Shown here in pieces: positions 1 to 20,072 of a DNA stretch of 20,328 nucleotides (position 1 is the first letter of the stretch; every line of letters starts with the position of its first letter). The translations under genes were made by a program, and so were the position numbers. Origin of the DNA: Prevotellaceae bacterium (GTDB lineage Bacteria > Bacteroidota > Bacteroidia > Bacteroidales > UBA932); NCBI GenBank assembly GCA_031259225.1, contig JAIRLT010000263.1, positions 1-20,328 on the forward strand, written 5' to 3'. The notes beneath the pieces were generated by a model, which searched no databases, was not told the origin of the DNA, and saw only the letters and a list, made by a program, of their open reading frames with translations.

Positions 1-1971
1 GGACACTTGCAGTTCCGAAACTTTTTCGCCATTGACATTATAAAACGTAACGGTTTGCTGCTTGCCGGCGATTGCCGCGGCTTTTTCATTTTCCCATTTC
101 AACATGACGCCTTTAAAATAGACGGTTTGCCCCGGGCGGTAAATGGCGCGGTCGGTAAAAAAAGTAGTTTGGTAAGACGGGGCGTTCGCGCCGGCATAGC
201 GGTATAAATAGGCATTTCCGCCGGCATAGCTGTCCGTCCCTTTGGTGAAAAACAAAGACAAATTGCGGTGTTGGTTGTCCGCACTTGTTAATGTTATCCT
301 GCCTTCCGCGCCGGAGGTATAGGTTTCGCCGTATTTCACTTCATACCACCGCTGGTTGTATTTATATTCATGCGTGTAGCGTTGTGCAGTTACGCCCTTC
401 AAAGGCTGCCCGCTTGTCCGGTCAAGCAACTGTACAATGATTTGCCCATTGTCTTCCCGTTTCACAAAACTGATGTTCGTTATCCAAATTTTCATTTCCG
501 TTACGAGCGTGGCTTTGTCCGAAAAATGCCCGTCCACCGAAGCCAGCAGGGCGTAATAACCCTCGTTCAATGCCGGTAACGCCAACTCCACGGTATGCTG
601 CTGGTAATCGCCGTCGTCGGGCAAATCAAACGCCATCGTTTGCACGGTTTTCGCCGCTGCATAAGCCACCAGCCGGTCTTCTTCGTTGGTGCGCAGCAGC
701 TCTTTTTTGAAATCCAGCGCTACGATTTTAATATATACTTTAGGTACGTTCCGGTACACCACATTGACGAGCAGCGGCAGTCCGGGCGCCGTCGCCTCGT
801 CCGCCGTAAGGGTGAGCGCCGGTTGCAGAATGTCATTTTTCAGGGCAAGGCAGTTGTTTGTGCCGAAACTATCCGGAAAACGGCTCGCCGCGCAGTCAAT
901 CACTGCCACCGCTTCCTTTTTCTTCCATTGCGGCGCGGGGTTGGTAAAAGGATTGTAGGCATCGCCCTGCCGGTTATACAGTTTTGCCCTACGGTAAGCA
1001 ATCTCTGCCGAACACGGCGCGCCGGCATACTGCGTTTCCAACGCCTGCAACGCCGACAGATACAGGCTGTCCTTGTTGGGCAGGACACTTTTCCGGTGCA
1101 CAAAATCCAGCCGCCACAAATCGGCGTCCACCAATGCATCCGGCGTGGTGTCCGGCAAATGAAACGCTATAAGCTGTTGTAATAATACCAATGATTGATA
1201 GGGGAACGACAGCGTGTCGGTTGTTGCCGGCGGCTGCTGTACGAAGGCGGCGGCAGGCGCGAAATATTCCGCCCGGTCGATTACAAACCGGTCAGCCGGC
1301 TGCGTTAAACCGGCTTCGGTGTTTTGGTAAAAAGCTACGGCGCGGAACGCCAAAAAATCAAACAACGTGGGGCGGTAACGCTCCGAATACGGCGCTTTCT
1401 TCAAAATAGCGGCATACGCGCCGGTATTGATTTGCTGCAACGCCTCCGGCATTTCCAGCGAAGCCGAATAATGCGCTACACACCGCTCCACCAGTTGCCG
1501 CAAGTCGAGGGTACGCACGTCGTCCGGGGGCAAGTTCCCTACTGCATCCGGCGCGGGCATCCGGGATGTGCGGTTGTGGAATTGCCAGCGGTTTCCTTCG
1601 TAATACTGCCAATATAAACCGGCAGCTATCGTATGCAAAATATTTCCGGTGGGGAAGGTGGCGGTACGAAGCAGTTCTTCCGTCTCGGCAATGTTTTTGG
1701 CAAGCGCGTCCTCTTCGTAGCTGCTTTTTACCCGCAAGCGGTAAATCACGGCTTTGATGAATTGCGGCACATTCTTTTCCTGCCGCGCCGCATCGTAAAT
1801 TTTATCAATAATTTTCCCCGCCGGTTGCGGTTGCCCGGCAGCCAATAAACTGTCGGCTTTTTCCCATTCGGATGTATAATTTTTCATTAGTATATCAGGT
1901 TGATTTTTTTGTGTCCATGCCGGCAGCGCGGCAAACAACGCCGCAATGGCTATTAAAACGGTTCTTTTCAT
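1..1971 (-). CDS. Large secreted MG2-domain protein, alpha-2-macroglobulin family. N-terminal 657 aa only; the C-terminus lies beyond the window.
   Basis: Translating the reverse complement from the ATG at 1971-1969 gives MKRTVLIAIAALFAALPAWTQK, a signal peptide with no Cys. A sensible, stop-free frame then runs to position 1 (1971 nt = 657 codons). It ends with a TDRAIYRPGQTVYFKGV-type segment typical of bacterial A2M MG domains. The ORF is absent from the supplied track only because it has no in-window stop. Every + strand ORF in this region reads as antisense junk. Confidence 0.6.
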   Translation of the reverse strand, partial: MKRTVLIAIAALFAALPAWTQKNQPDILMKNYTSEWEKADSLLAAGQPQPAGKIIDKIYDAARQEKNVPQFIKAVIYRLRVKSSYEEDALAKNIAETEELLRTATFPTGNILHTIAAGLYWQYYEGNRWQFHNRTSRMPAPDAVGNLPPDDVRTLDLRQLVERCVAHYSASLEMPEALQQINTGAYAAILKKAPYSERYRPTLFDFLAFRAVAFYQNTEAGLTQPADRFVIDRAEYFAPAAAFVQQPPATTDTLSFPYQSLVLLQQLIAFHLPDTTPDALVDADLWRLDFVHRKSVLPNKDSLYLSALQALETQYAGAPCSAEIAYRRAKLYNRQGDAYNPFTNPAPQWKKKEAVAVIDCAASRFPDSFGTNNCLALKNDILQPALTLTADEATAPGLPLLVNVVYRNVPKVYIKIVALDFKKELLRTNEEDRLVAYAAAKTVQTMAFDLPDDGDYQQHTVELALPALNEGYYALLASVDGHFSDKATLVTEMKIWITNISFVKREDNGQIIVQLLDRTSGQPLKGVTAQRYTHEYKYNQRWYEVKYGETYTSGAEGRITLTSADNQHRNLSLFFTKGTDSYAGGNAYLYRYAGANAPSYQTTFFTDRAIYRPGQTVYFKGVMLKWENEKAAAIAGKQQTVTFYNVNGEKVSELQVS

Positions 1972-1993
1972 AAACGAGCCTTTTAATTTATAA

Positions 1994-2001
1994 CAAAGAT
2001 A
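1994..2001 (-). promoter_or_regulatory. Bacteroidota -7 promoter element (TATCTTTG on the minus strand) for the MG2-domain gene
   Basis: Plus-strand caaagata is the reverse complement of TAtcTTTG. It matches the TAnnTTTG consensus and sits 22 nt upstream of the ATG at 1971. Confidence 0.5.
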
Positions 2002-2017
2002 GTGAAAAAGAATTTGT

Positions 2018-2046
2018 AGGAATTAGGAATTGGCTGGCGCCAGAAC
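2018..2046. repeat. Short repeat block: inverted CTAATTC motifs (gaattaggaatt) next to the perfect palindrome CTGGCGCCAG
   Basis: Read directly: ggaattaggaattggCTGGCGCCAGaac. Related motifs recur at 2174-2268 and 9437-9452. Confidence 0.5.
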
Positions 2047-2083
2047 AAATTCAAAATTCAAAGATTTCAAGTTTCAAAATTTC

Positions 2084-2117
2084 AAAAAAAACCGCCGGTA
2101 CATTTCTGCACCGGCAG
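2084..2117 (-). terminator. Rho-independent terminator for the minus-strand biosynthetic operon
   Basis: The minus-strand transcript reads cuGCCGGUGCA-GAAA-UGUACCGGCgg followed by U8. That is a 9-bp stem (one G.U) with a GNRA tetraloop and a poly-U tail, about 135 nt after the last operon stop at 2255. On the plus strand the same stem has an A-C mismatch, which supports minus orientation. Confidence 0.65.
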
Positions 2118-2136
2118 TTCTTCTTTGCACCCATCA

Positions 2137-2172
2137 CCCCCTCCTAAGGTTTGGTGGTCAGGGGGCTTTTTT
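2137..2172 (+). terminator. Orphan plus-oriented hairpin plus T6 (CCCCCT...AGGGGG then cTTTTTT)
   Basis: A 6-bp G/C stem (2137-2142 paired with 2160-2165) is followed by c and T6 at 2167-2172. No plus-strand gene lies upstream. Confidence 0.3.
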
Positions 2173-2173
2173 C

Positions 2174-2268
2174 TAATTGGCTGGTACGCCAGCCTAATTC
2201 TGTAAATCCGTAAATTGTTTCCGGCGCGACAGCCTAATTCCTAATTCTTAATTCCTAATTCTTAATTG
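2174..2268. repeat. Repeat block at the 3' end of the operon. It holds a near-palindrome GGCTGGTACGCCAGCC, two inverted ATTTACNG octamers (ctgtaaatccgtaaattg) and five tandem CTAATTC/TTAATTC heptamers that overlap the last codons and stop of the KS-partner gene.
   Basis: Read directly from the sequence. The heptamers are at 2234-2240, 2241-2247, 2248-2254, 2255-2261 and 2262-2268. The octamers are the reverse complement of the ATTTACGG ATTTACAG units found at 9405-9436. Confidence 0.6.
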
Positions 2269-3259
2269 GCTGCCGTGCCACCGCTAACATCAATGTGTGG
2301 TTGCAATTTTGATAATGGTTATAGAGCAGTACTTTTTGCGGCTTGGCGGCTGTGCCGGGTCTAAATACGGCGGGTGCGGGAAATGCGCCGGCGGCAATGG
2401 AATGAGCGGCTAATGCCAAAGCAAAGGCGCTGCTTGTATGGTATTCCCCGCAGAGGTGCTTATAGGTGATAAGCTGGCAGGAGGGCGGGAAAAAGTTATC
2501 TATAAGCCGGCAGTATATGGCGTCGTCGCCCGGGTTGCCGTTTATCCCCAAGAGGACGGCGTCCAAGTGGTGCAGCGGCATATTGTGTTCTTCCAAAAAC
2601 CGGGCAATAAAATCCTCCTCAGGGGCATAATAAGTCCTGACCGCCGGAATTTCCACGCTGTTTTTTCCGGCGGGCGAGTCGCTTAGCAGGAAAAATCCCG
2701 CTCCTTCGCCGGTAACCACTTTTGGCGTTAGCAGGTTGTAATAATGCATGGAAAATTCGTCGATGCCGCCTACCAGCACTTGCCGGTGTTCCTTTTCGTG
2801 GAGTAGCATCAGGGCGTCCAGCAGGGCGTTTTCAAACGAAGCGCCGCGATGGCAATGGGTATTGTTATAGGTCTGTATTTTCAACGTGCGCGCCACCTGC
2901 GCCGCCACCGTATTGTGCAGTGAGTTGATAAACGGAATGGACGACAACCCCTGTTCCCCTGTTTCGATAATGGATTTCAGGAAAAGTTCGAGGTCATTGA
3001 CACAGGCAAGCCCGGTGCCAACGATGATAGCATCGGGCTGTTGCCCGCCGGCATTGTTGATACATAGCTGCGCCGCGCCTATCCCCAGTTTCAGGATGCG
3101 CGACATGCGCCGCAGTTGCACCGGGTTGATGAGTCCTTTGTAATTTGGCTCTATTGCCGGCAATATGGGCATGCCCTCCGTTTCCAGCCCGCACGAAAAG
3201 TCATTTTCAAAAGTGCGTTGCGGCGAAATAAGTCCTGTGGATGTAAGGTAAGCATGCAT
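2255..3259 (-). CDS. Ketosynthase-like partner subunit, chain-length-factor-like. A shortened beta-ketoacyl synthase family protein that lacks the HGTGT catalytic His motif.
   Basis: The 334-aa ORF has a KS-like core (QVLVGGIDEF, and GEYHTSSAFALALAA aligning to the GYTGHTLAAAGAA region of the adjacent KS). LGINGNPGDD replaces the HGTGT motif. Its start codon lies 1 nt after the KS stop, which points to a coupled KS/CLF-type heterodimer. Confidence 0.7.
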   Translation of the reverse strand: MHAYLTSTGLISPQRTFENDFSCGLETEGMPILPAIEPNYKGLINPVQLRRMSRILKLGIGAAQLCINNAGGQQPDAIIVGTGLACVNDLELFLKSIIETGEQGLSSIPFINSLHNTVAAQVARTLKIQTYNNTHCHRGASFENALLDALMLLHEKEHRQVLVGGIDEFSMHYYNLLTPKVVTGEGAGFFLLSDSPAGKNSVEIPAVRTYYAPEEDFIARFLEEHNMPLHHLDAVLLGINGNPGDDAIYCRLIDNFFPPSCQLITYKHLCGEYHTSSAFALALAAHSIAAGAFPAPAVFRPGTAAKPQKVLLYNHYQNCNHTLMLAVARQPIKN

Positions 3260-3260
3260 A

Positions 3261-4490
3261 TTACGGTCGTGAAAAAATTAAAGCGGCATTGCTCCCCCCA
3301 AAGCCAAAAGAGTTGGATAAAACATGATTGACCGGTACGTTTTCTTCCAGCGCCGTTTGCGGCAGGAATGAGAGTTCGGGCATTTGCGTAGTGAAGCGCA
3401 GGTTCGGGAACAGCAGGCGGTGTTGGATGGCGAGGATGGAAATGATAGCCTCTGCCGCCCCGGCAGCCGCTAAAGTATGCCCCGTATAGCCTTTGGTGGA
3501 GCTGACCGGCGGGACAGTGGCGCCGAAAACCGTTTCAATGGCGCGCCCTTCCGACAGGTCGTTTATCACCGTGCCGGTGCCGTGCGCATTGATATAGCTG
3601 ATGCCGGCGGCAGGCAGCCCTGCTGTGTCCAGCGCTTTCCTGATAGCGTGTACCGCGCCTTCGCCGTAGGGCGACGAAGCGGTTTGGTGGTAGGCTTCGT
3701 TGGTGTTCGCATAACCGCTTAACCGGCATAAAATATTTTCCGGTTTGGCTACGGCGGCGGCTTCCAGTACGAGGTAGGCGGCTCCTTCCCCTAATGAAAT
3801 GCCGTTCCGGTGGGCGTCAAAAGGCATACAGCCGCCCGGCGACAGGATTTCCAAGCTGTTAAAACCGTTCAGGGCGAAACGGGTCAAGGCGTCGGCGCCG
3901 CCTACCAGCACTTTGTCGGCAATGCCGGTTTTAATCATCCTCGCGCCGACAATAATCGCATTCGCCGAAGAGGAACAGGCGGTGCTTACCGTAGTAACAT
4001 TATTTGAAATGCCGAAATAGCCGGCGATTTTTTGCGCAGCGTCGGCGCAATCCAACAATTCTATGTATTTTTTTTCTACCGTTCCCGCCAATATCGTATG
4101 GGCGTTTTTTTCATGAAAACGCATTCCGCCCGTCGTGGTCGCGGACACCAAGCTGATCCGTTGCTTATCCACTTTGCTTTGCGACATCCGCATGGCTTCC
4201 TGCGCCGCTACCAAACCCAGCAGGGCTGTGCGGGAACAGACATCCCTGCCCGGATGCATATCCGCGCGGCGGAATAATTCTTCGTCGCTGCATTTTACTT
4301 CCCCTGCCGGAAGGTGTTTTAATTTTGTATCGAATAATGTGATGGGGGCAATGCCTGTCCGCTGTTCACGCAGGGCAAGCAATGTTTCCTTTACCGAAAA
4401 CCCTATCGCCGACACCATGCCGGCGCCTGTAATGTAAACCGCCGGCATGGATTTATTGTAAACCGCTGGCATGGATTCAGGATCTTTCAC
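3261..4490 (-). CDS. Beta-ketoacyl-ACP synthase, FabF/KAS II-like ketosynthase
   Basis: Active-site motif VSTACSSS is present, together with HGTGT, GHTLAAAG and NSFGFGGSNAALIF. The N-terminus carries a short tandem duplication, MPAVYNKS followed by MPAVYITGAG. The true start may be the internal Met at 4448 (MPAVYITGAGMVSAIG, a textbook KS N-terminus) rather than 4490. Confidence 0.9.
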   Translation of the reverse strand: MKDPESMPAVYNKSMPAVYITGAGMVSAIGFSVKETLLALREQRTGIAPITLFDTKLKHLPAGEVKCSDEELFRRADMHPGRDVCSRTALLGLVAAQEAMRMSQSKVDKQRISLVSATTTGGMRFHEKNAHTILAGTVEKKYIELLDCADAAQKIAGYFGISNNVTTVSTACSSSANAIIVGARMIKTGIADKVLVGGADALTRFALNGFNSLEILSPGGCMPFDAHRNGISLGEGAAYLVLEAAAVAKPENILCRLSGYANTNEAYHQTASSPYGEGAVHAIRKALDTAGLPAAGISYINAHGTGTVINDLSEGRAIETVFGATVPPVSSTKGYTGHTLAAAGAAEAIISILAIQHRLLFPNLRFTTQMPELSFLPQTALEENVPVNHVLSNSFGFGGSNAALIFSRP

Positions 4491-4491
4491 T

Positions 4492-4752
4492 TTACTGGTG
4501 GCTCAAGATATAATCCGCCATGGCATTCACCGATTGCAAGGCATCGCGGCGTTCTTTCGGGTCTTCCACCCGGATGCCATATTGTTTTTCCAACAATAAA
4601 ATTAACTCCAAGGCGTCAATAGAGTCCAGCCCCAGCCCTTCCACGAAGAGCGGGGCTGCGGGGTCAATGTCGCCGGGGGTAAGGTCTTCGAGCAATAATG
4701 CTTCTATGATTTGTGCCTTTAATTGTTCGACAAGTGCTGTTTTTTCCATCAT
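4492..4752 (-). CDS. Acyl carrier protein
   Basis: 86 aa with the phosphopantetheine attachment motif LGLDSIDALEL. Its stop lies 1 nt before the KS start. Confidence 0.9.
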   Translation of the reverse strand: MMEKTALVEQLKAQIIEALLLEDLTPGDIDPAAPLFVEGLGLDSIDALELILLLEKQYGIRVEDPKERRDALQSVNAMADYILSHQ

Positions 4753-4771
4753 ATTTTTTTAAAATTTAATT

Positions 4772-6043
4772 CTACAAATCTATCCTTTTTCTTTTATTAT
4801 ACCAAATCGCCGCTCCGGTGCACAGGGCAAAAAACAATAACGAAACGGCGCTTTCCGGCAGGACGGACGTCCAGTTCCCGCCCCGTACAAAAATGGCGTA
4901 AAAACCTTCCAGCCCCCAGTTCAGCGGCGAGATATGGCTAACGAGTTGCATGATGTGCGGCATGACGAATACCGGGATCCATATGCCGCCAATTGCCGCC
5001 ATTATTACTACTGAAATGGATGCAAAGATAGCCGCCTGCTGGTGCGTTACCGCCACTTTTCCTATCAGCACGCCATAGCCGATAGCCGCCAGTGCGGAAG
5101 ACGTGCAGGTTAAGATCAGGGCAAAATAATCGACACCGGCGTCCAAAGGAGGCAAGCCCAAGTACGGGAAAACAAAAACGCCCAAAAGCATCAACGCCGT
5201 AAACTGTAAAACGCAAACCCCAAAATATACGGCGATTTTGCTGAATAAATAAAAGGAATAGGGGCAGGGCATCAGGCGTAACCGCGTATAACTCCCGTCG
5301 TCCCGTTCCTTGATAATATTTCCCGACAGGGAAATGGTGATAAAGAAAATGGCAAACATACTCCATGCCGGCACGTTGTGCTGTGTGGAATTGGGTATTT
5401 TATCCCGTTCTTTCAAGGACGCATATTGCTCGGTAAAGAGCACCTGATTGCGCGCCAGGTGCACATCGGTAATGGGGATGGGCGACAGGTGGTTTACTTC
5501 CGCAATAATTTCGTTGAAAATAAAATCCGATTCCGTGCGTACGGCATACTCCCGCAGGCTGCTCATCAAGGTGGTGCGGAAGGAGCTTTTAATCGCCGGG
5601 TCCAGGTAAATAGCTACCTGCACCTCATCGGCAACCGGCGGTAATGCTTTGCCGTTAAACGCGCCGGCGACATACCGCTTTACATTTTTCCGGATATTCA
5701 CGGTCGCCTGTTCCGGCACCATGATCCCAACCAGGTAATCGCCTTTGGCGACTGCCGTAACCAGTTGTTCTTCCGTCACCGGTTGACCGTTTATGGATTT
5801 ATGCACGTCGAAGATGCCGGATTGCGTTATTTGCTTTTCCATCGCCACGCCCAGGGAACCGGTGTCGCGGTTGAGCAGCAGCAAGGGGATGTGATTTTCG
5901 TGTACCGCATGAAACGTGCTATCCTGCAAACAGGTCATGATGATTACCAGCAACACGGGCAGGAGGAACATCATGGCAAGCCCGGCTTTGTCGCGCACCA
6001 GCAAAAGGAAATCTTTATAAATTAAGAATTGAAATTTGTTCAT
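4772..6043 (-). CDS. ABC-2 family transporter permease
   Basis: 423 aa. There is an N-terminal TM helix (LAMMFLLPVLLVIIMTCL), a large extracytoplasmic loop, and a C-terminal cluster of about 5 hydrophobic helices. Its start abuts the ATPase stop. Confidence 0.8.
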   Translation of the reverse strand: MNKFQFLIYKDFLLLVRDKAGLAMMFLLPVLLVIIMTCLQDSTFHAVHENHIPLLLLNRDTGSLGVAMEKQITQSGIFDVHKSINGQPVTEEQLVTAVAKGDYLVGIMVPEQATVNIRKNVKRYVAGAFNGKALPPVADEVQVAIYLDPAIKSSFRTTLMSSLREYAVRTESDFIFNEIIAEVNHLSPIPITDVHLARNQVLFTEQYASLKERDKIPNSTQHNVPAWSMFAIFFITISLSGNIIKERDDGSYTRLRLMPCPYSFYLFSKIAVYFGVCVLQFTALMLLGVFVFPYLGLPPLDAGVDYFALILTCTSSALAAIGYGVLIGKVAVTHQQAAIFASISVVIMAAIGGIWIPVFVMPHIMQLVSHISPLNWGLEGFYAIFVRGGNWTSVLPESAVSLLFFALCTGAAIWYNKRKRIDL

Positions 6044-6790
6044 TTAATCACGCAATTTCTTCCCGGTAAGTTGCAGGTATAACATTTCCAAAGAAGTGCA
6101 ACCCGGCTGTTGTTTTATCATTTCGGCAGGATTTCCTTCGCATACGACGCTGCCTTCATCAATAAAGGCGACGTGGGAACAAAGCGCTTCCGCCTCTTCC
6201 ATGTAGTGCGAGGTGTAGATAATGGTAGTCCCTTGCCGGTTCATTTCGCGCAGGCTTTCGAGGATAACGTTTTTTGATTGCACATCCACGCCAGCCGTAG
6301 GTTCGTCGAGAAACAGTATTTTCGGGCGGTGCAGTATGCCGGCGATGAGGTTCACCCGCCGTTTCATTCCGCCTGAAAAGTTTTGCAGGGTACGGCGTTT
6401 ACTTTGTTCCAGCCCGAATTGGGAAAGCAGTTCGTTTATACGGTTGTCTAACACCGCGCCGCGCAGCCCGAAAATCCCGCCGAAAATTTTCAGGTTTTCG
6501 TATGCCGTAAGCAGGGGGTAGAGCGCTATTTCCTGCGGCACAAAGCCAATAAGCGTTTTTATTTCCTTCCATTGTCGGGGAAGGGCATATCCATAGATGT
6601 TTACTTCGCCTTCGTCAAAGGAGCGCAGACCGCAGAGGATATTTATGAGGGTGGTTTTTCCCGCGCCGTTAGGTCCGAGTAGCCCGAATACCGTTCCCTG
6701 CGCTATTGACAGCGACAGGCGGTCTATCGCTGGGGAGGCATTTCCCCTGTAAGTTTTTACCAGTCGTTTAATGGTTATCGCCGGATACAT
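6044..6790 (-). CDS. ABC transporter ATP-binding protein
   Basis: Walker A motif GLLGPNGAGKTT, ABC signature LSGGMKRRVNLIAG, Walker B ILFLDEPTAGVD. Confidence 0.9.
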   Translation of the reverse strand: MYPAITIKRLVKTYRGNASPAIDRLSLSIAQGTVFGLLGPNGAGKTTLINILCGLRSFDEGEVNIYGYALPRQWKEIKTLIGFVPQEIALYPLLTAYENLKIFGGIFGLRGAVLDNRINELLSQFGLEQSKRRTLQNFSGGMKRRVNLIAGILHRPKILFLDEPTAGVDVQSKNVILESLREMNRQGTTIIYTSHYMEEAEALCSHVAFIDEGSVVCEGNPAEMIKQQPGCTSLEMLYLQLTGKKLRD

Positions 6791-6808
6791 GGTGCCGTGT
6801 TTTACTTT

Positions 6809-7822
6809 TTAAGGTTTATAGCTGTTTACGGTTTGGCGCAGCAGGCGGAAAATGGCTTCTTCCGCGCCGGCTATTTTCATCAGTTTATCCGCCAGCTCAT
6901 CATAGGTGCAAAGATCTTCGCCGCGGTTTTTGAATTTGCGTCCTGCGGCGGCGGCAAATTCGCGCCACCTGTCGCCGGCTTCCGTCATTTGCGCCGCGTA
7001 TTTCCTGCATTCCGGTTGCCGGAGGATGTCGGCGGCTTCCTGCAAAAATGCGGCATACATAAACCTGAAGCCGGCGCCGCCGGTGCCTATTTCTTCCAGC
7101 ATGCGTATAACCTGCGCCAGGTTCAACGCCGCCCGGTGGGTTCCAAAGCGTTTTTCCCAGCGGCGCATTCTTTTGGCGAGCAGGCGGATGCCGTGCACGC
7201 CGAAAAAAGGCAGGGGAATGTCAAGCATTCGGCGGCAGTTTAATTTTATGGCTTTAACCACCGCCCGCTGCAAATCCGGGCTTTGCGTTTTCATGCGGTC
7301 AATCCAGTACATTTTGCCGTAGGGGGGATAAGTGCCTTTGGCATAGCGGCAGCGTTTCAATGCTTCATAGCCGATAGTTTCCTTTTGCAGTATCACCGGG
7401 TCGCTTACGATATACTCGCCGTTTTCTTTCCCAATCACGGCAATGTTGTGGGCGTTGAAATGGAAACGGTATTCTTTCGGGAAATACGGTAAATGGAATA
7501 CGCCGACCAGCACGCCTACCGGCATTTCCCGGGCAATCAGGCGGTCTAAAGCCTGCATGGATTTATCTTTGTCTATGAACCGGCGTGTTTTTACTTTTAC
7601 CCCCAAGAGGTTAGTTACCCGCGAAAATATTTTCCCCGGCAAAGGACGAAACGAGGTAACCGCCATTCCGTGCAAGGTGATAAAAGGCATGTGGGAGAAA
7701 AATAAACCCGACCCCAGCCCTAAAACCATCGGTTCGCTAATGTTGATACCGTGAAAATTCAATAAATTTGATGTAACGCCGCTCTCGCAATGCGCCGCCG
7801 GTTTATGCTCAAATGCTATCAT
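6809..7822 (-). CDS. BtrH N-terminal domain protein (butirosin BtrH-like, predicted ACP-dependent acyltransferase fold, with a DUF4872-like C-terminal half)
   Basis: The segment MIAFEHKPAAHCESGVTSNLLNFHGINISEPMVLGLGSGLFF resembles the BtrH_N signature. The track ORF 6809..8068 is trimmed to the Met at 7822. The upstream 82 codons overlap the preceding gene in another frame and look non-coding. The ATG at 7822-7820 overlaps the upstream stop as ATGA. Confidence 0.6.
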   Translation of the reverse strand: MIAFEHKPAAHCESGVTSNLLNFHGINISEPMVLGLGSGLFFSHMPFITLHGMAVTSFRPLPGKIFSRVTNLLGVKVKTRRFIDKDKSMQALDRLIAREMPVGVLVGVFHLPYFPKEYRFHFNAHNIAVIGKENGEYIVSDPVILQKETIGYEALKRCRYAKGTYPPYGKMYWIDRMKTQSPDLQRAVVKAIKLNCRRMLDIPLPFFGVHGIRLLAKRMRRWEKRFGTHRAALNLAQVIRMLEEIGTGGAGFRFMYAAFLQEAADILRQPECRKYAAQMTEAGDRWREFAAAAGRKFKNRGEDLCTYDELADKLMKIAGAEEAIFRLLRQTVNSYKP

Positions 7823-8214
7823 ACACTTTTTAACTCTTCTTCCGTAATATGCATCGCATCGGCATATTTCTTCAGTATGGATGCGTCTACTTGTAAAAAC
7901 GCCTTTGCTTCCAGGTGCTTTTTGATTGTTTTTTTCGGCAGTCCCGTGTATGCTGCCAGCAGGGGAATGTCCAGCAAGCACATTCTTATATGATAAGCCA
8001 AAGGGCTTTTTTTGCCGGCAAGGACTTCCTGCCGGATTGTTTCCGCTTCTTTTGAAATATATTCCCACGTTAATGACAGGGCGTCGTGTTTCGCCTTGCA
8101 GCCCGCGCTAAGCACTTGCCGGTAATTCCCCTGTTCATCCAGGGCATAATAAACATTACGAAGCTGTGTGTTTCCGGAGGATTGTTCTTCTTGCAGCGCT
8201 TCTTCTATTTTCAT
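7819..8214 (-). CDS. Hypothetical 131-aa protein within the biosynthetic operon
   Basis: A complete ORF whose start lies 4 nt after the FabH-like stop. No recognisable motif. Confidence 0.55.
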   Translation of the reverse strand: MKIEEALQEEQSSGNTQLRNVYYALDEQGNYRQVLSAGCKAKHDALSLTWEYISKEAETIRQEVLAGKKSPLAYHIRMCLLDIPLLAAYTGLPKKTIKKHLEAKAFLQVDASILKKYADAMHITEEELKSV

Positions 8215-8218
8215 AGTC

Positions 8219-9355
8219 TTAACAAACGGTTAATAGCGAATATCCATACGAAAAGCGGGCGCTTTCCGGGATCATTAAAAGTATTTTTTGCCCCTGCTTC
8301 AACATTCCCGAATGCACCAGTTCTTCGAGCATGATGAAATTGGACGCCGACGCGACATTGCCTACTTTCTGCAAATTCAAAAACCATTTCTCTTCCGGAA
8401 TGGCAAATCCCAGTGATGCCAGTTCATCAAAGATTTTATCCTTGAAAAACATGGACGACAAGTGCGGTAAAAACCAGTCAATGTCTTCCGGGCGGAGGTT
8501 CCTTTTTTGCACGGTTTCCATAAAAAACCGACCGCCCAGTTTCACAATGTGTTCGTCGAGCAAGCGCGTATTCTGTTTCAATGCAAACAACGACCGGGAA
8601 AGCCATTCGTCTTCCGGGAACAGCGTCCAGCCCAGTAACTCGCCCTGCGCATTCTTTTCCCCGCCGGCATACATGCACGTTTCTACCTCGTGGGCGTACG
8701 AACAAATATCTATCCAGTCAATTTTCAGGGAGCAGCCGGAGCGGGCAGGTTCGGTTTGCAAGAGCAGCGCTGCCGCCCCGTCGGACAGCATCCACCGCAA
8801 AAACTCTTTTTCAAATGCCAGCACTGGTTTTTTGTCCAATTCCTTTAACCGTTCCATTTCGACGGTGAAGTTTTTGGCAAGCATCCATGCCGAAGGGCGT
8901 TCGGACGCGACGCATACCGCATTGTTTTTCCCGCCCGACAAAAGCGAGAGGTAAGCATACTTTAATGCCTGTATCCCAACACAGCACGAACCGGCAAAAG
9001 AAACCACTTCCGCATTTTTCCCGCCCAACAAGCCATGCACCATCACCCCGTGCGAGGGGACAAGTTGTTCCGGCGAAGCCGTACCCGCCGCCAACAACTC
9101 CATATCCCCGATGAAGAAACCGTAATCACATAATTTTTTAATGGCTTGCACCGCCATTTGAACGCTCGTATGCGTTACATTACCGGCTTCATCCAGAGCG
9201 TAATAACGTGTCTTTATGCCATTATTTTTCAGCACAAGACGTTTAGCGTGCGAGGGGATATTGTCAATCATCCCCAAATATTTTTCCATGTCGTTATTAC
9301 CGACCGGCTGGTTGGGGAAAAAAGTTGAAAACGCCGTAATGTAGATTTCTTTCAT
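8219..9355 (-). CDS. FabH-like 3-oxoacyl-ACP synthase III family protein
   Basis: KAS III-like motifs FAGSCCVGIQALKYA and NLQKVGNVASASNFIMLEEL. Start chosen at MKEIYITAFS (9355) because a TAnnTTTG -7 element sits 4 nt upstream of it. The longer ORF reaching 9391 would place that promoter element inside the gene. Confidence 0.75.
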   Translation of the reverse strand: MKEIYITAFSTFFPNQPVGNNDMEKYLGMIDNIPSHAKRLVLKNNGIKTRYYALDEAGNVTHTSVQMAVQAIKKLCDYGFFIGDMELLAAGTASPEQLVPSHGVMVHGLLGGKNAEVVSFAGSCCVGIQALKYAYLSLLSGGKNNAVCVASERPSAWMLAKNFTVEMERLKELDKKPVLAFEKEFLRWMLSDGAAALLLQTEPARSGCSLKIDWIDICSYAHEVETCMYAGGEKNAQGELLGWTLFPEDEWLSRSLFALKQNTRLLDEHIVKLGGRFFMETVQKRNLRPEDIDWFLPHLSSMFFKDKIFDELASLGFAIPEEKWFLNLQKVGNVASASNFIMLEELVHSGMLKQGQKILLMIPESARFSYGYSLLTVC

Positions 9356-9359
9356 CCTG

Positions 9360-9367
9360 CAAAGATA
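9360..9367 (-). promoter_or_regulatory. Bacteroidota -7 element (TATCTTTG) abutting the FabH-like start. The predicted mRNA is leaderless or has a very short leader.
   Basis: Plus-strand caaagata at 9360-9367 is the reverse complement of TAtcTTTG. The ATG at 9355 is 4 nt downstream. A TTG lies about 21 nt further upstream, in the -33 position. Confidence 0.55.
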
Positions 9368-9404
9368 CAAAATTCTCGTATTATGGAACAAAGAACACTG
9401 AGAA

Positions 9405-9456
9405 ATTTACAGATTTACGGATTTACTTATTTACAGGTTTAGCCTGGCGCCGAAAA
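9405..9456. repeat. Four perfect tandem ATTTACNG octamers (ATTTACAG ATTTACGG ATTTACTT ATTTACAG) followed by a GCCTGGCGCC palindrome, about 40-90 nt upstream of the operon promoter
   Basis: Read directly at 9405-9436 and 9441-9452. The same octamers occur inverted at 2200-2217, and a related palindrome at 2032-2041 and 2179-2194. Confidence 0.6.
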
Positions 9457-9758: not shown

Positions 9759-12125
9759 ATGGAAAATTTAACTGCTTTATTACCGCCTTGGGGAATAGTT
9801 ATTATTGCTATTCTTGGTTTATGGCTTCTGTTGAAAGGTTTGGTAAATGTGGGATCAACTCAAATTGCTACCGTTGAAAGAAAGTATATCGGCAAAGAAA
9901 TGGGCAATGGTCGCACGGTTGCACTTCCCGGGGAAGTTGGTATTCAGGCAAGGATCCTTGGTCCCGGCTTGCATTTTCTGATCCCTTTTTTTCAAAAAGC
10001 GCGAAAATACCCTTATATCGTTATTAGAGATAATCAGATAGGGTTAGTAGAAGCAATTACCGGCGCGCCTATTCCCGAAGGGAAATTTATGGCAGAAGCG
10101 ATCGACTGTAATACCTTTCAAGACGGCGCGGCTTTTCTCAAAAATGGAGGTCAGAAGGGTCCCCAAATAGCTATCCTTCCTCCGGGAGAGCACCGGATTA
10201 ATCCGTACCTGTTTAAAGTTAGCGTGCAAAATGCCATAAAAGTTGGCGACAATCAAGTGGGGATTATAGAATCCATTGCAGGCGATCCAATTCCTCCCGG
10301 GCATATTATGGCGCAGTCTGTAAAATGTAATTTATTTCAGGATGGCATAGCATTTCTCAAAAACGGAGGTCAAAAAGGACCTCAATTGGACATCCTGACC
10401 CCGGGATATTACCGTATCAACACGTATCTTTTTAAAGTGAGGATAGAAAATGCCGTAGAAGTGCCCGGCGGATATATCCGTATGGTTACTTCGATTGATG
10501 GAGAAAAAATTCCCGACGGACAAATTCTCGCCAAGAAAGTAGAAGGGCATTCTAATTTTGAAAAAGGAGACATTTTCCTCCAGAATGGGGGTCAGAAAGG
10601 TCGGCAAATCCAGCATCTGATGCCCGGGACATACCGCATTAATACAAGCCTGTTTGAAGTCAGTGATGCTGTTAAGTGGATAGAAATCGGTCCTGATGAA
10701 GTAGGGATTACTACCACATTGGAAGGGAAACCGATTACCGATAGCGGTAAAATTGCAGCCGATGAAGTTCCTTTGGATAAGCACAGTAATTTTCAGGATG
10801 CCGCGGCATTCCTGGAAAATTGTGGTCAAAAAGGGCTTCAAATACCGGTATTACGGGCAGGCGCTTATGCTATTAATCCGTGGTTTGCGTCTGTTGAAAA
10901 ACAACCCATGGTCAAAGTCGGTATTGGCGAATGTGCTGTAATTACCAGCTTCGTCGGAGAAGAATGGAAACAAAATACAGAAGACTCCGTAGAAAATAAC
11001 AGGGTGAATGCAAAGCTTGTACCTGTCGGCTATAAAGGAATTTGGCATACCCCGTTAGGTCCCGGTAAACACCCGCTCAATCCGAAAACGTGCAGGTGGG
11101 ATATTGTGCCTACCGTACAGGTGGTTTTGAGCTGGGATAATGCCAAAACAGAAGATAAATCCTTAACGTATGAATACGATAAGGATTTGCGTACCATTGT
11201 GCTGCGTACGGCAGACGCATTTGATGTTTCCATGACCGTACAAGTAATGTTCCATATTCCAATGGGTAAGGCGCCTGCCGTAGTGGCTGATTTGGGTTCC
11301 ATGAGAGACATGATTTCTCAAGTATTAGAACCGGCTGTGAGTTCTCATTTCCGTAATGCGGCACAAAAGGTAAAAGCATTAGATCTTTACACCCAGCGGA
11401 TGGAACTGGCAGAAGCCGCTAAGAAAAAGATTTCCGAAGTATTGGCTCTTTATCATATTGAGTCGCGAGACGTAATGATTACGGATGTGATTTTACCGGA
11501 ATCTATTGTTAAACCTGTGAAACAGGCTGCCATTGCCATTGAAGAAGAAAAACAGTACAAGAGCGAAGAACAGGCGCAAAATGCACGTAAGAATTTGGAG
11601 TTTGCTAAAAAACAAGCGGACATGCAAGAAGCATTGGTGGAATCGGAACGTCAAATCGAGATTTCAAAAAACAATGCCGAAGCTACAGCCAAAAAGGCAG
11701 AAGGAGATAAGAAAGCCCAAATTCTTAAAGCCGAAGCAAGCGCTGCGGAAATTGCACTTGTTGCAAATGCCAATGCTCAGAAAGTAGAACAGGTGGGTTT
11801 AGCTGAAGCCAAAGTAATCCTTGAACAGGGCAAAGCGCAGGCAGAAGCGTATAAACTATCTCAGGAAGCATTGGGTACCGACTATGCCCGCTTGCAGATT
11901 ATCGAAGCCATTGCAAAGAACCGGTTACAAATCATTCCACAAAACATCATCGCCGGCGGCGGAGAGTCCGGATCCGGTATTATTAATCAATTCTTGGGAG
12001 TACGAATGTTAGAAGAATTGACGGGCAGACCGTTTAATTCGAAAACAGACGAAATCCCGACGTCCACAACTCATCTTGCAGACATTTTGCAGCAAAGGAA
12101 AGAGGGGAAAAAAGAGAAAAAATAA
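9759..12125 (+). CDS. Flotillin / SPFH (band 7) family membrane protein with an expanded internal repeat region
   Basis: N-terminal TM helix (LLPPWGIVIIAILGLWLLL). GGQKG-Q...L-PG-YRINP-LF-V units resemble the N-terminal beta segment of YqiK/flotillin SPFH domains. The C-terminal half is a long Ala/Glu/Lys-rich coiled coil (AEAKVILEQGKAQAEAYKLSQEALGTDYARLQIIEAIAK), typical of the flotillin C-terminus. Confidence 0.75.
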   Translation: MENLTALLPPWGIVIIAILGLWLLLKGLVNVGSTQIATVERKYIGKEMGNGRTVALPGEVGIQARILGPGLHFLIPFFQKARKYPYIVIRDNQIGLVEAITGAPIPEGKFMAEAIDCNTFQDGAAFLKNGGQKGPQIAILPPGEHRINPYLFKVSVQNAIKVGDNQVGIIESIAGDPIPPGHIMAQSVKCNLFQDGIAFLKNGGQKGPQLDILTPGYYRINTYLFKVRIENAVEVPGGYIRMVTSIDGEKIPDGQILAKKVEGHSNFEKGDIFLQNGGQKGRQIQHLMPGTYRINTSLFEVSDAVKWIEIGPDEVGITTTLEGKPITDSGKIAADEVPLDKHSNFQDAAAFLENCGQKGLQIPVLRAGAYAINPWFASVEKQPMVKVGIGECAVITSFVGEEWKQNTEDSVENNRVNAKLVPVGYKGIWHTPLGPGKHPLNPKTCRWDIVPTVQVVLSWDNAKTEDKSLTYEYDKDLRTIVLRTADAFDVSMTVQVMFHIPMGKAPAVVADLGSMRDMISQVLEPAVSSHFRNAAQKVKALDLYTQRMELAEAAKKKISEVLALYHIESRDVMITDVILPESIVKPVKQAAIAIEEEKQYKSEEQAQNARKNLEFAKKQADMQEALVESERQIEISKNNAEATAKKAEGDKKAQILKAEASAAEIALVANANAQKVEQVGLAEAKVILEQGKAQAEAYKLSQEALGTDYARLQIIEAIAKNRLQIIPQNIIAGGGESGSGIINQFLGVRMLEELTGRPFNSKTDEIPTSTTHLADILQQRKEGKKEKK
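10029..10922 (+). repeat. Four tandem ~75-aa intragenic repeats (about 225 nt each) inside the flotillin-like CDS
   Basis: Units start at roughly aa 91, 165, 239 and 313. Each contains xGxPIPxG, FQDGxAFLKNGGQKGxQ, LxPGxYRINxxLFxV. They are also visible at DNA level, for example tttctcaaaaatggaggtcagaagggtcc versus tttctcaaaaacggaggtcaaaaaggacc. Confidence 0.7.
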
Positions 12126-12386: not shown

Positions 12387-12469
12387 GCGGGCATGGCGTA
12401 ATTTGGTAGCCGCGCCAGACTTAGGATCTGGTGCCGTAAGGCGTGGGGGTTCGAGTCCCTTTGCCCGCA
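12387..12469 (+). tRNA. tRNA-Leu, anticodon TAG
   Basis: Manual fold. Acceptor stem GCGGGCA/TGCCCGC, 3-bp D stem, anticodon stem CCAGA/TCTGG with loop CTTAGGA (anticodon TAG), long variable arm, T arm GGGGG-TTCGAGT-CCCTT, discriminator A. CCA is not encoded. 83 nt, class II. Confidence 0.85.
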
Positions 12470-12543
12470 CAATAAAACGTGATTAGTTGATGACATAACG
12501 GAATTTCGTAATCTGATATCAGTATCCAATATTAAAACAGTTC

Positions 12544-15781: not shown

Positions 15782-15789
15782 TTTTCCTG

Positions 15790-15863
15790 TGACTCCGGAG
15801 GGATTCGAACCCGCGACCCACAGATTAGAAATCTGTTGCTCTATCCAACTGAGCTACGGAGCC
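15790..15863 (-). tRNA. tRNA-Arg, anticodon TCT
   Basis: Reverse complement GGCTCCGTAGCTCAGTTGGATAGAGCAACAGATTTCTAATCTGTGGGTCGCGGGTTCGAATCCCTCCGGAGTCA. Acceptor stem GGCTCCG/CGGAGTC (one G.U), D arm GCTC...GAGC, anticodon stem ACAGA/TCTGT with loop TTTCTAA. There is one C-U mismatch in the T stem. 74 nt. Confidence 0.8.
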
Positions 15864-18278: not shown

Positions 18279-18298
18279 AATAACTTTTTTAGGATGTG

Positions 18299-18306
18299 CA
18301 AAGATA
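18299..18306 (-). promoter_or_regulatory. -7 element TATCTTTG (the same tgcaaagatacaaaa context as at 9357-9371)
   Basis: Plus-strand caaagata, the reverse complement of TAtcTTTG. Confidence 0.5.
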
Positions 18307-18660
18307 CAAAAAAACTCCACAGATTGTATAAAGCGGCAATAGTTTTTTCAGGATAAATACACAAAATTAAGTAATCAAAATTTGGCAGTATATGCCGCGC
18401 TTGCCACGGGTTGCCGGGTGGCTGCATCAAGCGTCCGTCCGGTAACGTCGGTAGCATGCGCCGGCGCAAGGCTCAACCCGCCCGCCAAGAATGCCACATA
18501 TTTTTTCAAACCGTTTATCACATTGCGTTTTTAAGATGATTAATAAAAAGGCGCAAGATAGCATGCCGGCAAGTCTCTCGCAATACCATTAATGTGGTAT
18601 TTTTTACCCTGTGTATTCGGACGAGGTGCTACTGTTGTTGAGAGGATGGAAAAATTTGCG

Positions 18661-20071: not shown

Positions 20072-20072
20072 T

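What the first reader, a model, noticed from the sequence alone, without database searches (positions are those of the whole stretch)
2255..9391. Compact eight-gene cluster that looks like an uncharacterised fatty-acid/type-II-PKS-like pathway with its own ABC exporter
All eight genes are on the minus strand with gaps of 0-19 nt or ATGA overlaps, so this reads as a single operon. The gene order is a FabH-like KS III, a 131-aa unknown, a BtrH_N-domain protein, an ABC ATPase, an ABC-2 permease, a discrete ACP, a FabF-like ketosynthase, and a non-catalytic KS partner with a cluster-specific KS/CLF-type arrangement. In butirosin biosynthesis BtrH transfers an ACP-bound acyl group onto an amine. 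The FabH-like primer KS, the KS plus CLF-like elongation pair, the dedicated ACP and the BtrH-like protein suggest synthesis of a specialised acyl chain on the private ACP and its transfer to an acceptor. The ABC-2 pump suggests export of the product. No ketoreductase or dehydratase is seen in the window. The product would therefore either borrow FAS enzymes or stay poly-beta-keto. The cluster is wedged between conserved genes and is much more GC-rich than the flotillin-tig-clpPX side.
Basis: partly seen in the sequence, partly recalled or inferred. Interest (0 to 1): 0.75.

Follow-up and report, generated by a model that had tools for sequence, protein, structure and literature searches.

The report
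Dialkylresorcinol (dar) operon lacking darA
The eight genes are real and form one operon, but it is a copy of the already published "dar" gene set that Bacteroidota and some Proteobacteria use to make the dialkylresorcinol lipid part of flexirubin-type pigments, here in a termite-gut Prevotellaceae genome and without the usual aromatase gene darA next to it.

Summary
Eight intact minus-strand genes (2255-9391) are packed with 0-19 nt gaps or an ATGA overlap. A Bacteroidota-type promoter motif precedes them and a strong terminator hairpin follows.

The "FabH-like KS III" is DarB, the StlD/DarB head-to-head condensing ketosynthase (NCBIfam 551 bits; StlD structure E 8e-121). It is not a primer KS. 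The "131-aa unknown" belongs to the DarG family, and the BtrH-like protein is DarH.

The order darB-G-H-I-J-C-D plus a CLF-like partner matches the published dar loci of Chitinophaga pinensis and Flavobacterium johnsoniae (flexirubin) and of Azoarcus BH72 (arcuflavin).

Two things differ. No darA aromatase lies beside darB, whereas 45 of 53 scorable related loci have one. No polyene (flx/APE) genes lie within 20 kb.

The darA-less cassette recurs in three sister MAGs in different genomic contexts, with dN/dS of 0.01-0.17.

Likely mechanism, inferred: KS/CLF plus the private ACP supply a beta-ketoacyl thioester. DarB cyclises it with an enoyl thioester. DarH, a CtaG/BtrH-fold Cys-His-Asp transacylase, couples an ACP-bound acyl group to an acceptor. 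The ABC-2 pump exports the lipid.

Verdict: a new member of a known kind, of modest interest.

The parts
9360..9367 (-). Promoter-like Bacteroidota -7 motif TAnnTTTG (TATCTTTG), 4 nt upstream of the darB ATG
   Evidence: Pattern search. The same motif sits at the same place in front of darB in L001, L004, L005, L007 and L013. The identical 15-mer recurs before another minus-strand gene at 18297-18311 (D11). This is a consensus match only.
8219..9355 (-). darB: StlD/DarB-family ketosynthase (378 aa), a head-to-head condensing and cyclising enzyme
   Evidence: NCBIfam resorcinol_DarB 551 bits (cut-off 550) and StlD/DarB subfamily 541.5 bits (cut-off 450). StlD structure 5gk0 matches at E 8e-121 over the full length, with the active-site Cys (C124), the WFLPH His and the GN(V)ASAS Asn conserved.
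7819..8214 (-). darG-family protein (131 aa): N-terminal beta-hairpin plus long helix, C-terminal XRE/Cro-type HTH
   Evidence: NCBIfam DarG_fam 109.5 bits (cut-off 70). The flexirubin_DarG equivalog scores 113, below its cut-off of 170. AF2 model pLDDT 80. Foldseek matches Cro/C.BclI/SinR-type HTH domains over about 58 residues at rmsd about 2 A. Some homologues carry PF13443.
6809..7822 (-). darH: BtrH-related acyltransferase (337 aa), papain-like N-domain plus helical C-domain
   Evidence: NCBIfam DarH_acyl 415.5 bits (cut-off 300). Pfam BtrH_N 2e-45 and DUF4872 2e-54. AF2 model pLDDT 81.7. Foldseek matches AziU3 at 1e-10, CtaG at 7e-9 and CcbD at 1e-7. Invariant C12, H125 and D141 have the same spacing as the CtaG triad C11/H128/D144.
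6044..6790 (-). darI-type ABC transporter ATP-binding subunit (248 aa)
   Evidence: Pfam ABC_tran 2e-32. The closest NCBIfam model is DrrA-type at 245 bits, below its cut-off. It follows DarH in 63 of 72 related loci.
4772..6043 (-). darJ-type ABC-2 permease (423 aa)
   Evidence: Pfam ABC2_membrane_3 8e-30 and ABC2_membrane 1.6e-20.
4492..4752 (-). darC-type discrete acyl carrier protein (86 aa)
   Evidence: Pfam PP-binding 3.5e-9. NCBIfam PRK09184 72.8 bits (cut-off 70). The AcpP equivalog is not met. The LDS motif with the phosphopantetheine Ser is at residues 42-44. The protein is 99% identical in L005, with dN/dS 0.013.
3261..4490 (-). darD-type elongating ketosynthase (409 aa, GTG start) with intact Cys-His-His
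   Evidence: Pfam ketoacyl-synt N and C. The best solved match is ApeO (6qsp_A, 3.4e-58). The TACSSS, HGTGT and GHT motifs are present. The FabF equivalog scores 282, below its cut-off of 494.
2255..3259 (-). Non-catalytic KS partner (CLF-like, 334 aa)
   Evidence: Pfam Ketoacyl-synt_2 28 bits (cut-off 25). There is a weak match to ApeC (6qsp_B, E 0.033). Gly aligns at the active-site Cys position of FabF. NCBI names it beta-ketoacyl synthase chain length factor. It co-occurs with the KS in 23 of 49 related loci.
2084..2120 (-). Terminator-like hairpin (13 bp, -22 kcal/mol) followed by T8, ending the operon
   Evidence: Sequence and RNAfold. The next gene downstream has its own TAnnTTTG motif at 2001-1994.

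Best explanation
This is a dar operon, the dialkylresorcinol-type lipid module known from flexirubin and arcuflavin gene clusters. It sits on a contig of an uncultured termite-gut Prevotellaceae MAG.

**Proposed working.**
1. *(inferred)* The KS, its CLF-like partner and the private ACP extend a fatty acyl chain once with malonate. They hold it as a beta-ketoacyl thioester. This is why the operon has no KR or DH.
2. *(family function shown elsewhere; membership shown here)* DarB condenses that beta-ketoacyl thioester head-to-head with a 2-enoyl thioester borrowed from FAS II. A Claisen plus Michael reaction gives a carboxy-2,5-dialkylcyclohexane-1,3-dione.
3. *(open)* DarA normally aromatises this to the resorcinol. 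No darA lies beside darB here. Either darA is elsewhere in the incomplete MAG, or the product stays a cyclohexanedione.
4. *(inferred from fold and conserved triad)* DarH takes an acyl group from a carrier protein onto Cys12. It passes the group to a free acceptor, most plausibly a ring hydroxyl. That would make the ester bond seen in flexirubin-type lipids.
5. *(inferred)* The ABC-2 transporter moves the hydrophobic product out of the inner membrane.
6. *(inferred)* DarG, an XRE-type HTH protein translationally coupled to DarH, is either a pathway regulator or a DarH partner.
For: **Family membership.**
- DarB, DarG-family and DarH pass their curated NCBIfam cut-offs.
- DarB matches StlD at E 8e-121 with the Cys/His/Asn conserved.

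**Gene order.** The order is identical to the published dar loci:
- C. pinensis / F. johnsoniae: A, B, G, H, I, J, C, D.
- Azoarcus BH72: azo0293-0283.

The same order occurs in most of 80 species-representative loci.

**DarB chemistry and the DarA role.** Taken from the literature summary in PMC6836626.

**KS/CLF.** The pair resembles ApeO-ApeC, and the KS triad is intact.

**DarH.** Its fold equals CtaG/CcbD/AziU3, with a Cys-His-Asp set at CtaG-like spacing.

**Link to the polyene-lipid pathway.**
- In relatives the DarG-H-I-J module also sits beside LolA, FabA-like, AMP-ligase, KS and acyltransferase genes with no DarB adjacent.
- In L003 the dar locus runs on into flxV/flxW-like genes.

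**Selection.** All eight genes are under purifying selection between darA-less sister cassettes (dN/dS 0.01-0.17).
Against: - No darA is in the window (tblastn best E 0.65). No polyene or flexirubin genes lie within 20 kb.
- The flexirubin_DarG equivalog cut-off is not met (113 vs 170). DarB only just clears its exception-level cut-off (551 vs 550).
- The roles of DarG, DarH, the ABC pair and the KS/CLF pair have not, as far as I could find, been tested biochemically in any organism.
- The KS/CLF pair is closest to polyene-building ApeO-ApeC. It could therefore build something other than a single beta-keto extension.
- The organism is an uncultured gut anaerobe. No product is known.
Confidence: 0.75

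Rival explanations
1. Canonical flexirubin-type pigment pathway split over the genome. On this reading darA and the aryl-polyene (flx/APE) genes lie on other contigs of the same MAG. This operon would then supply only the resorcinol half and the coupling and export functions.
For: - C. pinensis itself keeps the dar and flx loci apart. Azoarcus keeps three unlinked loci.
- Two members of the sister termite-gut clade, L008 and L010, have darA next to darB.
- DarG-H-I-J sits next to APE-type genes in L024 and L054.
- The MAG is fragmentary; this contig is only 20 kb.
Against: - Four sister MAG contigs (window, L004, L005, L006) all lack darA and flx genes in their flanks, and they sit in four different contexts.
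That was not searched for specifically (the one search that included 'termite gut' is).
Confidence: 0.35
2. A FabH-like KS III primes, and the KS/CLF pair elongates, a novel specialised or poly-beta-keto acyl chain on the private ACP. The BtrH-like enzyme then transfers that chain to an amine acceptor.
For: - The domain content fits at Pfam level.
- Characterised BtrH, CtaG and CcbD form amide bonds.
- The KS/CLF pair resembles a polyketide-type pair.
Against: - The KS III is a full-length DarB/StlD orthologue. This family is described as having lost elongation in favour of head-to-head condensation.
- The DarB tree places it inside darA-associated DarBs.
- The whole gene order is that of known dar loci.
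Confidence: 0.07
3. A decaying remnant. On this reading loss of darA left a non-functional dar operon on its way to pseudogenisation.
For: - darA is absent beside darB in the window.
- There is a window-specific 24-nt in-frame duplication at the 5' end of the KS gene.
Against: - All eight ORFs are intact, and the catalytic residues are kept.
- dN/dS is 0.01-0.17 for every gene against two darA-less sister cassettes.
- The promoter motif is conserved.
Confidence: 0.05
4. Ordinary housekeeping fabH/fabF/acpP paralogues in a fatty-acid synthesis operon.
For: There are weak hits to the FabH, FabF and AcpP models.
Against: - All of these score far below their curated cut-offs, while the DarB and DarH models are passed.
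- No fabD, fabG or fabZ is present.
- BtrH-like and ABC-2 genes are embedded in the operon.
Confidence: 0.01

Closest known systems
dar locus of the flexirubin clusters of Chitinophaga pinensis DSM 2588 and Flavobacterium johnsoniae UW101 (darA, B, G, H, I, J, C, D, E; Schoener et al. 2014, PMC3992019; table in PMC12968099)
   Same: The families and the order are the same: DarB, hypothetical G, BtrH_N protein H, ABC ATPase I, ABC permease J, ACP C, KS D. The curated NCBIfam models named after this locus are passed by the window's DarB, DarG family and DarH.
   Different: - No darA lies beside darB.
- The flexirubin_DarG equivalog cut-off is not met.
- The last gene here is a CLF-like KS partner, not the M14 peptidase listed as darE.
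- No flx polyene genes lie within 20 kb.
- The host is an anaerobic gut Prevotellaceae MAG, not an aerobic pigmented Bacteroidota.
DAR locus of Azoarcus sp. BH72 for arcuflavin (azo0293-0283: darA, B, D, E, F, [TA pair], I, C, J, K; PMC3949708)
   Same: The order is the same gene for gene, including the final hypothetical protein after the KS: KS III, conserved hypothetical, BtrH-like, ABC ATPase, ABC permease, ACP, KS, hypothetical.
   Different: - Azoarcus has darA and an inserted toxin-antitoxin pair.
- It is a betaproteobacterium.
- Its DAR is esterified to a xanthomonadin-type polyene made by two other loci.
Minimal darABC / StlCD systems (Pseudomonas aurantiaca darABC; Photorhabdus StlD-StlC; a Burkholderia pseudomallei plasmid triad)
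   Same: The DarB/StlD ketosynthase and a dedicated ACP are shared. StlD is the closest solved structure. The triad arrangement was seen on plasmid NZ_CP009155.
   Different: Those systems have DarA and lack DarG, DarH, the ABC pair and the KS/CLF pair. Their products are free resorcinols, cyclohexanediones or stilbenes.
ApeO-ApeC KS-CLF heterodimer of aryl-polyene clusters (PDB 6QSP; PMC8358021)
   Same: It is the best solved match for the KS (3.4e-58) and the only KS-partner match for the CLF-like protein.
   Different: - The CLF-like protein here is 334 aa against 239 aa, and the match is weak (E 0.033).
- The operon has no ApeQ-type KR or ApeI/P-type DH, so polyene synthesis is not expected from it alone.
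CtaG / BtrH / AsbE / CcbD protease-like, carrier-protein-dependent transacylases (PMC12865890)
   Same: The predicted bipartite fold is shared (papain-like N-domain, helical C-domain). So is a Cys/His/Asp set at equivalent spacing.
   Different: - Sequence identity is 10-18%.
- The known members form amide bonds, whereas an ester to a phenol or enol is proposed here.
- The acceptor is unknown.

Membership tests
dar (dialkylresorcinol) biosynthetic locus | StlD/DarB-family ketosynthase with the catalytic Cys-His-Asn | tested here: met
   NCBIfam NF053539 551 bits (cut-off 550) and NF005293 541.5 bits (cut-off 450). StlD matches at E 8e-121 with the triad conserved.
dar (dialkylresorcinol) biosynthetic locus | DarA aromatase encoded next to darB | tested here: not met
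   tblastn of four DarA-position proteins against the window gives a best E of 0.65. Upstream of darB lie 400 nt of non-coding DNA and then a divergent Band_7 gene. DarA is adjacent in 45 of 53 scorable related loci. Whether darA exists elsewhere in the MAG could not be tested.
dar (dialkylresorcinol) biosynthetic locus | Dedicated ACP (DarC) | tested here: met
   PP-binding domain, PRK09184 72.8 bits (cut-off 70), Ser motif present.
dar (dialkylresorcinol) biosynthetic locus | Extended dar gene order B-G-H-I-J-C-D as in C. pinensis and Azoarcus | tested here: met
   Window order compared with the published tables.
dar (dialkylresorcinol) biosynthetic locus | Product is a 2,5-dialkylresorcinol or cyclohexanedione | not testable with these tools
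   This needs expression and LC-MS.
Flexirubin-type pigment cluster | Aryl-polyene genes (TAL/4CL or chorismatase starter, KR, DH, LolA, glycosyltransferase/acyltransferase, MMPL exporter) linked or present in the genome | tested here: not met
   None is in the 20-kb window. Only this contig could be examined, so absence from the genome is not shown.
Flexirubin-type pigment cluster | DarG equivalog (NF053545) | tested here: not met
   113 bits against a cut-off of 170. Only the broader DarG_fam model is passed.
BtrH/CtaG-type carrier-protein-dependent transacylase | BtrH_N plus helical C-domain architecture | tested here: met
   Pfam BtrH_N 2e-45 and DUF4872 2e-54. Foldseek gives TM 0.63-0.69 to AziU3, CtaG and CcbD.
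BtrH/CtaG-type carrier-protein-dependent transacylase | Cys-His-Asp catalytic triad | tested here: inconclusive
   C12, H125 and D141 are invariant in 16 homologues, with spacing like CtaG C11/H128/D144. Their proximity in space in the model was not measured.
Type II PKS / aryl-polyene KS-CLF pair | Catalytic KS (Cys-His-His) encoded next to a partner that lacks the active-site Cys | tested here: met
   TACSSS, HGTGT and GHT motifs in the KS. Gly aligns at the Cys position in the partner, which also carries PF13723. Heterodimer formation was not tested.
Type II PKS / aryl-polyene KS-CLF pair | Cluster-encoded KR/DH (polyene type) or cyclase/aromatase (aromatic type) | tested here: not met
   No such domain is in the window.
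Housekeeping FAS II (fabH/fabF/acpP) | Passing the FabH, FabF and AcpP equivalog cut-offs | tested here: not met
   TIGR00747 79 vs 292, TIGR03150 282 vs 494, TIGR00517 39 vs 70.

The most novel reading that the evidence does not exclude
The darA-less, polyene-less eight-gene cassette may be a self-sufficient variant. It would make a non-aromatised dialkyl-cyclohexanedione, or an acyl ester of one made by DarH, and export it as a signal or envelope lipid in anaerobic termite-gut Prevotellaceae. On this reading it does not feed a flexirubin pigment at all. The cassette has been kept under purifying selection while it moved between genomic contexts.
Probability: 0.25. Interest if true: 0.5.

Novelty: new member of a known kind. 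Interest (0 to 1): 0.25.

Why it matters
The finding mainly corrects an annotation. The public record calls these genes FabH, hypothetical protein, BtrH N-terminal domain protein and chain length factor. Together they are a dar (resorcinol-type) biosynthetic operon.

It also shows how widespread and modular the dar accessory set is in uncultured Bacteroidales:
- DarH has more than 7,500 homologues.
- The blocks [darA-darB], [darG-H-I-J] and [ACP-KS-CLF] occur in several combinations.

The accessory proteins remain biochemically untested. The structural link of DarH to CtaG/BtrH-type transacylases gives a concrete, testable candidate for the long-unassigned step that esterifies the resorcinol in flexirubin-type lipids.

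The darA-less version in gut anaerobes is a modest open question. The product could be a cyclohexanedione or a resorcinol.

Tried and rejected
- **Exact-sequence context look-ups.** Look-ups for the window's ABC ATPase and DarH found nothing on record.
- **Naming DarA through homologues.** All 120 listed relatives of P0121 are "hypothetical protein". It has no Pfam, NCBIfam or PDB hit. Its identity as DarA therefore rests on two things. One is its position upstream of darB in 45 loci. The other is a homologue (34.7% identity, E 1e-57) in the darA slot of a darA-darB-acpP triad on a B. pseudomallei plasmid.
- **Profile search of DarH against PDB sequences.** This gave nothing useful. Only fold comparison worked.
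- **Sigma-70 promoter scan.** It was no better than shuffles, as expected for Bacteroidota.
- **Terminal inverted repeats of a mobile cassette.** I considered the inverted repeat that brackets the cassette (2195-2215 / 9413-9433, 21 nt, 86%, I12) and rejected it. It ranks only 12th among 70 chance-level pairs. It is built from short tandem 6-8-mers that fill intergenic regions in this lineage. The sister loci do not share it.
- **GC-rich island idea.** Rejected, because the left flank is as GC-rich as the cassette.
- **StlD structure paper.** It is not in the library. The catalytic residues were therefore read from the alignment only.
- **AziU2 as a DarG analogue.** No AziU2 chain appeared among the 50 fold matches listed for DarG.

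Full report
**1. Observation**

The window carries eight consecutive minus-strand ORFs between 2255 and 9391. Read from the sequence, the junctions are as follows:

| Junction | Spacing |
|---|---|
| darB to darG | 4 nt |
| darG / darH | ATGA overlap |
| darH to ABC ATPase | 18 nt |
| ABC ATPase to permease | 0 nt |
| permease to ACP | 19 nt |
| ACP to KS | 1 nt |
| KS to CLF-like gene | 1 nt |

Two start codons need correcting.
- DarH starts at the ATG at 7822 (337 aa, identical to the NCBI protein).
- DarB most likely starts at the ATG at 9355 (378 aa).

The KS start is the GTG at 4490. The V/M-K-D N-terminus is conserved in three sister loci.

No terminator-like site lies on the minus strand inside the cluster. 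A 13-bp hairpin (-22 kcal/mol) followed by T8 lies at 2114-2084. A Bacteroidota-type TAnnTTTG motif lies 4 nt before the darB ATG, and it is kept in five related loci. The single-operon reading is therefore sound.

The GC claim is only half right. The cassette is 50.9% GC and the flotillin-to-clpX side is 44.2%. The gene on the other side, an MG2-domain secreted protein, is 52.5%.

**2. What the cluster is**

NCBIfam models identify three of the proteins precisely.
- The KS III passes resorcinol_DarB (551 bits, cut-off 550) and the StlD/DarB subfamily (541.5 bits, cut-off 450).
- The 131-aa protein passes DarG_fam (109.5 bits, cut-off 70).
- The BtrH-like protein passes DarH_acyl (415.5 bits, cut-off 300).

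The FabH, FabF and AcpP equivalogs are all missed by wide margins, so these are not housekeeping genes.

DarB aligns over its full length to the solved StlD ketosynthase of Photorhabdus (E 8e-121). The active-site Cys, His and Asn are in place.

The names DarG and DarH come from the Chitinophaga pinensis flexirubin locus. A published table lists that locus as darA, darB, G (hypothetical), H (BtrH N-terminal domain), I (ABC ATP-binding), J (ABC permease), C (ACP), D (KS), E.

The Azoarcus BH72 arcuflavin paper lists the same order under other letters. It includes a final hypothetical protein after the KS.

The window is therefore darB-G-H-I-J-C-D plus the CLF-like partner. This is a known gene set, not a new kind of pathway.

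**3. Source and relatives**

The proteins are those of a MAG labelled Prevotellaceae bacterium (MDR0695113-MDR0695120; the contig length equals the window). The nearest relatives are other MAGs labelled Prevotellaceae, Dysgonamonadaceae, Tannerella or Candidatus Symbiothrix. One hit comes from a termite-gut metagenome.

DarH has more than 7,500 homologues. A scan of one genome per species returned 80 loci. I mapped them with tblastn.

| Feature scored | Count |
|---|---|
| DarB with a 304-aa gene directly upstream | 45 loci |
| DarB with no such gene within 2.5 kb (plus the window and L004) | 8 loci |
| DarG/DarH with no DarB upstream | 13 loci |
| ABC pair following DarH | 63 of 72 |
| KS plus CLF-like pair following | 23 of 49 |

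The locus is thus built from three blocks that occur in several combinations: [darA-darB], [darG-H-I-J] and [ACP-KS-CLF].

**4. Is the 304-aa upstream gene DarA?**

It has no Pfam, NCBIfam or PDB sequence match. All of its listed relatives are named hypothetical.

Its identification as DarA rests on position. It sits upstream of darB exactly as in Azoarcus. A homologue (34.7% identity, E 1e-57) also occupies the first slot of a hypothetical / KS III / acpP triad on a Burkholderia pseudomallei plasmid. That triad matches the classical darABC layout.

Four such proteins find nothing in the window (best E 0.65).

**5. The darA-less cassette**

In a DarB tree, the window and three sister MAG loci (L004, L005, L006; DarB 90-94% identical) form a clade in which none has darA adjacent. 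The next clade out is mixed. L008 and L010 have darA, while L007 and L013 do not. Other darA-less loci are scattered elsewhere in the tree.

This DarB is therefore nested among darA-associated enzymes. Adjacency of darA has been lost several times.

The four sister cassettes lie in four different neighbourhoods:

| Locus | Flanking genes |
|---|---|
| window | Band_7 and MG2 genes |
| L006 | PhoU/PHO4/VTT and SUI1/DUF4271/HEM4 |
| L005 | panC upstream |
| L004 | a GNAT gene downstream |

All eight genes are under purifying selection between them (dN/dS 0.01-0.17). The cassette is therefore maintained and not decaying. Whether darA sits elsewhere in these fragmentary MAGs could not be tested.

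**6. The parts**

*KS and partner.* The KS has the Cys-His-His motifs. Its best solved match is ApeO. The partner has Gly where FabF has the catalytic Cys, carries PF13723, and weakly matches ApeC. PDB entry 6QSP is the ApeO-ApeC KS-CLF heterodimer.

*ACP.* The ACP has its Ser motif. It is the most conserved protein of the set.

*DarH.* The model is confident (pLDDT 81.7). It matches AziU3, CtaG and CcbD over the whole length (Foldseek E 1e-10 to 1e-7, TM 0.63-0.69). CtaG is a papain-like ligase with a helical C-domain. Its triad is Cys11/His128/Asp144, and it works by a ping-pong mechanism through an acyl-Cys intermediate. BtrH and AsbE share that fold, take carrier-protein-bound donors and act on free acceptors. 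DarH has invariant C12, H125 and D141 at matching spacing.

*DarG.* The model has pLDDT 80. It shows a beta-hairpin, a long helix and a C-terminal five-helix XRE/Cro-type HTH.

**7. Mechanism proposed**

From the literature, DarB joins a beta-ketoacyl thioester and an alpha,beta-unsaturated acyl thioester into a carboxy-cyclohexanedione. DarA then aromatises it with decarboxylation.

My inferences are these.
- The operon has no KR or DH because the KS/CLF pair and the private ACP exist to make and hold the beta-keto substrate.
- DarH couples a carrier-bound acyl group to a free acceptor, most plausibly a ring hydroxyl.
- The ABC-2 pair exports the lipid.

Context in relatives supports a coupling and export role.
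- DarG-H-I-J occurs without DarB next to FabA-like and LolA genes (L054).
- It also occurs next to acyltransferase, KS and AMP-ligase genes (L024).
- In L003 the dar locus continues into amine-oxidase-type and Ntn-hydrolase-type genes, which correspond to flxV and flxW.

Without darA, the predicted ring product is a cyclohexanedione, unless darA is encoded elsewhere.

**8. Comparison and verdict**

The genes are not housekeeping FAS, and the BtrH_N and DUF4872 models are matched.

Its interpretation is partly supported. It is right about a dedicated ACP-based pathway with transacylase and exporter. It is wrong about the role of the KS III and about the pathway being uncharacterised as a type.

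The cluster is a new member of the known dar/resorcinol family. It belongs to the less common darA-less arrangement and sits in a gut anaerobe.

Interest is modest. It rises only if the cassette proves to be self-sufficient and to make a non-aromatic or newly acylated product.

Noticed in passing
window 19320-19909: An IS200-like Y1 transposase gene (149 aa, PF01797; 19379-19828, minus strand) is bracketed by two nested inverted-repeat pairs. These are 19320-19345 / 19884-19909 (26 nt, 96%) and 19360-19382 / 19841-19863 (23 nt, 96%). Each arm is itself hairpin-forming. This looks like a REP-associated tyrosine transposase (RAYT) with its REP-like hairpins.
   Followed up: partly
window 1969-2260 and 9395-9440; L004 and L005 flanks of the cassette: Intergenic DNA around the cassette is filled with short tandem 6-8-mers (AATTAGG, GTAAAT(n), CATACCT, AATGTGCT). 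It also holds GC-rich palindromes of the form GGCTGnCGCGnCAGCC. The same kind of element occurs in the sister MAG loci, so it appears to be a lineage-wide intergenic repeat family. Four GTAAAT copies sit 40-80 nt upstream of the darB promoter motif.
   Followed up: partly
window 4430-4477: A 24-nt in-frame tandem duplication (92% identical copies) sits at the 5' end of the KS gene. It adds MPAVYNKS before MPAVYITG. It is absent from L004, L005 and L006.
   Followed up: yes
window 10116-10841 (within 9759-12125, + strand): The 788-aa Band_7/SPFH protein has four internal repeats of about 73 aa before its SPFH domain (51-nt cores spaced 219-234 nt). This is an unusually long N-terminal repeat region for a flotillin-like protein.
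   Followed up: no
L054:8571-9538 and L024:3164-8153: In some Bacteroidales the darG-H-I-J block has no darB next to it. Instead it follows FabA-like dehydratase and LolA genes (L054), or acyltransferase, KS and AMP-ligase genes (L024). This suggests the block serves the polyene-lipid pathway more generally.
   Followed up: partly
window 9358-9372, 18297-18311, 20062-20076: The 15-mer TGCAAAGATACAAAA (the TAnnTTTG promoter motif on the minus strand) occurs identically before darB and inside the annotated 5' end of the DUF6913 ORF (17742-18320). The real start of that gene is therefore probably further downstream. A third, 87% copy lies near 20070.
   Followed up: no
window 12387-12470 (+) and 15789-15863 (-): tRNA-Leu (anticodon tag) lies between the Band_7 gene and tig. 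tRNA-Arg (anticodon tct) lies just after clpX.
   Followed up: yes
window 15908-16765 vs 16645-17742: The longest ORF of the GT2 glycosyltransferase overlaps the TPR gene by 120 nt. The GT2 domain starts at residue 48, so the true start is probably the internal Met (MINGKR...).
   Followed up: no
L005:11688-11961: The sister locus L005 has about 270 nt between the ABC ATPase and permease genes. The window has none.
   Followed up: no
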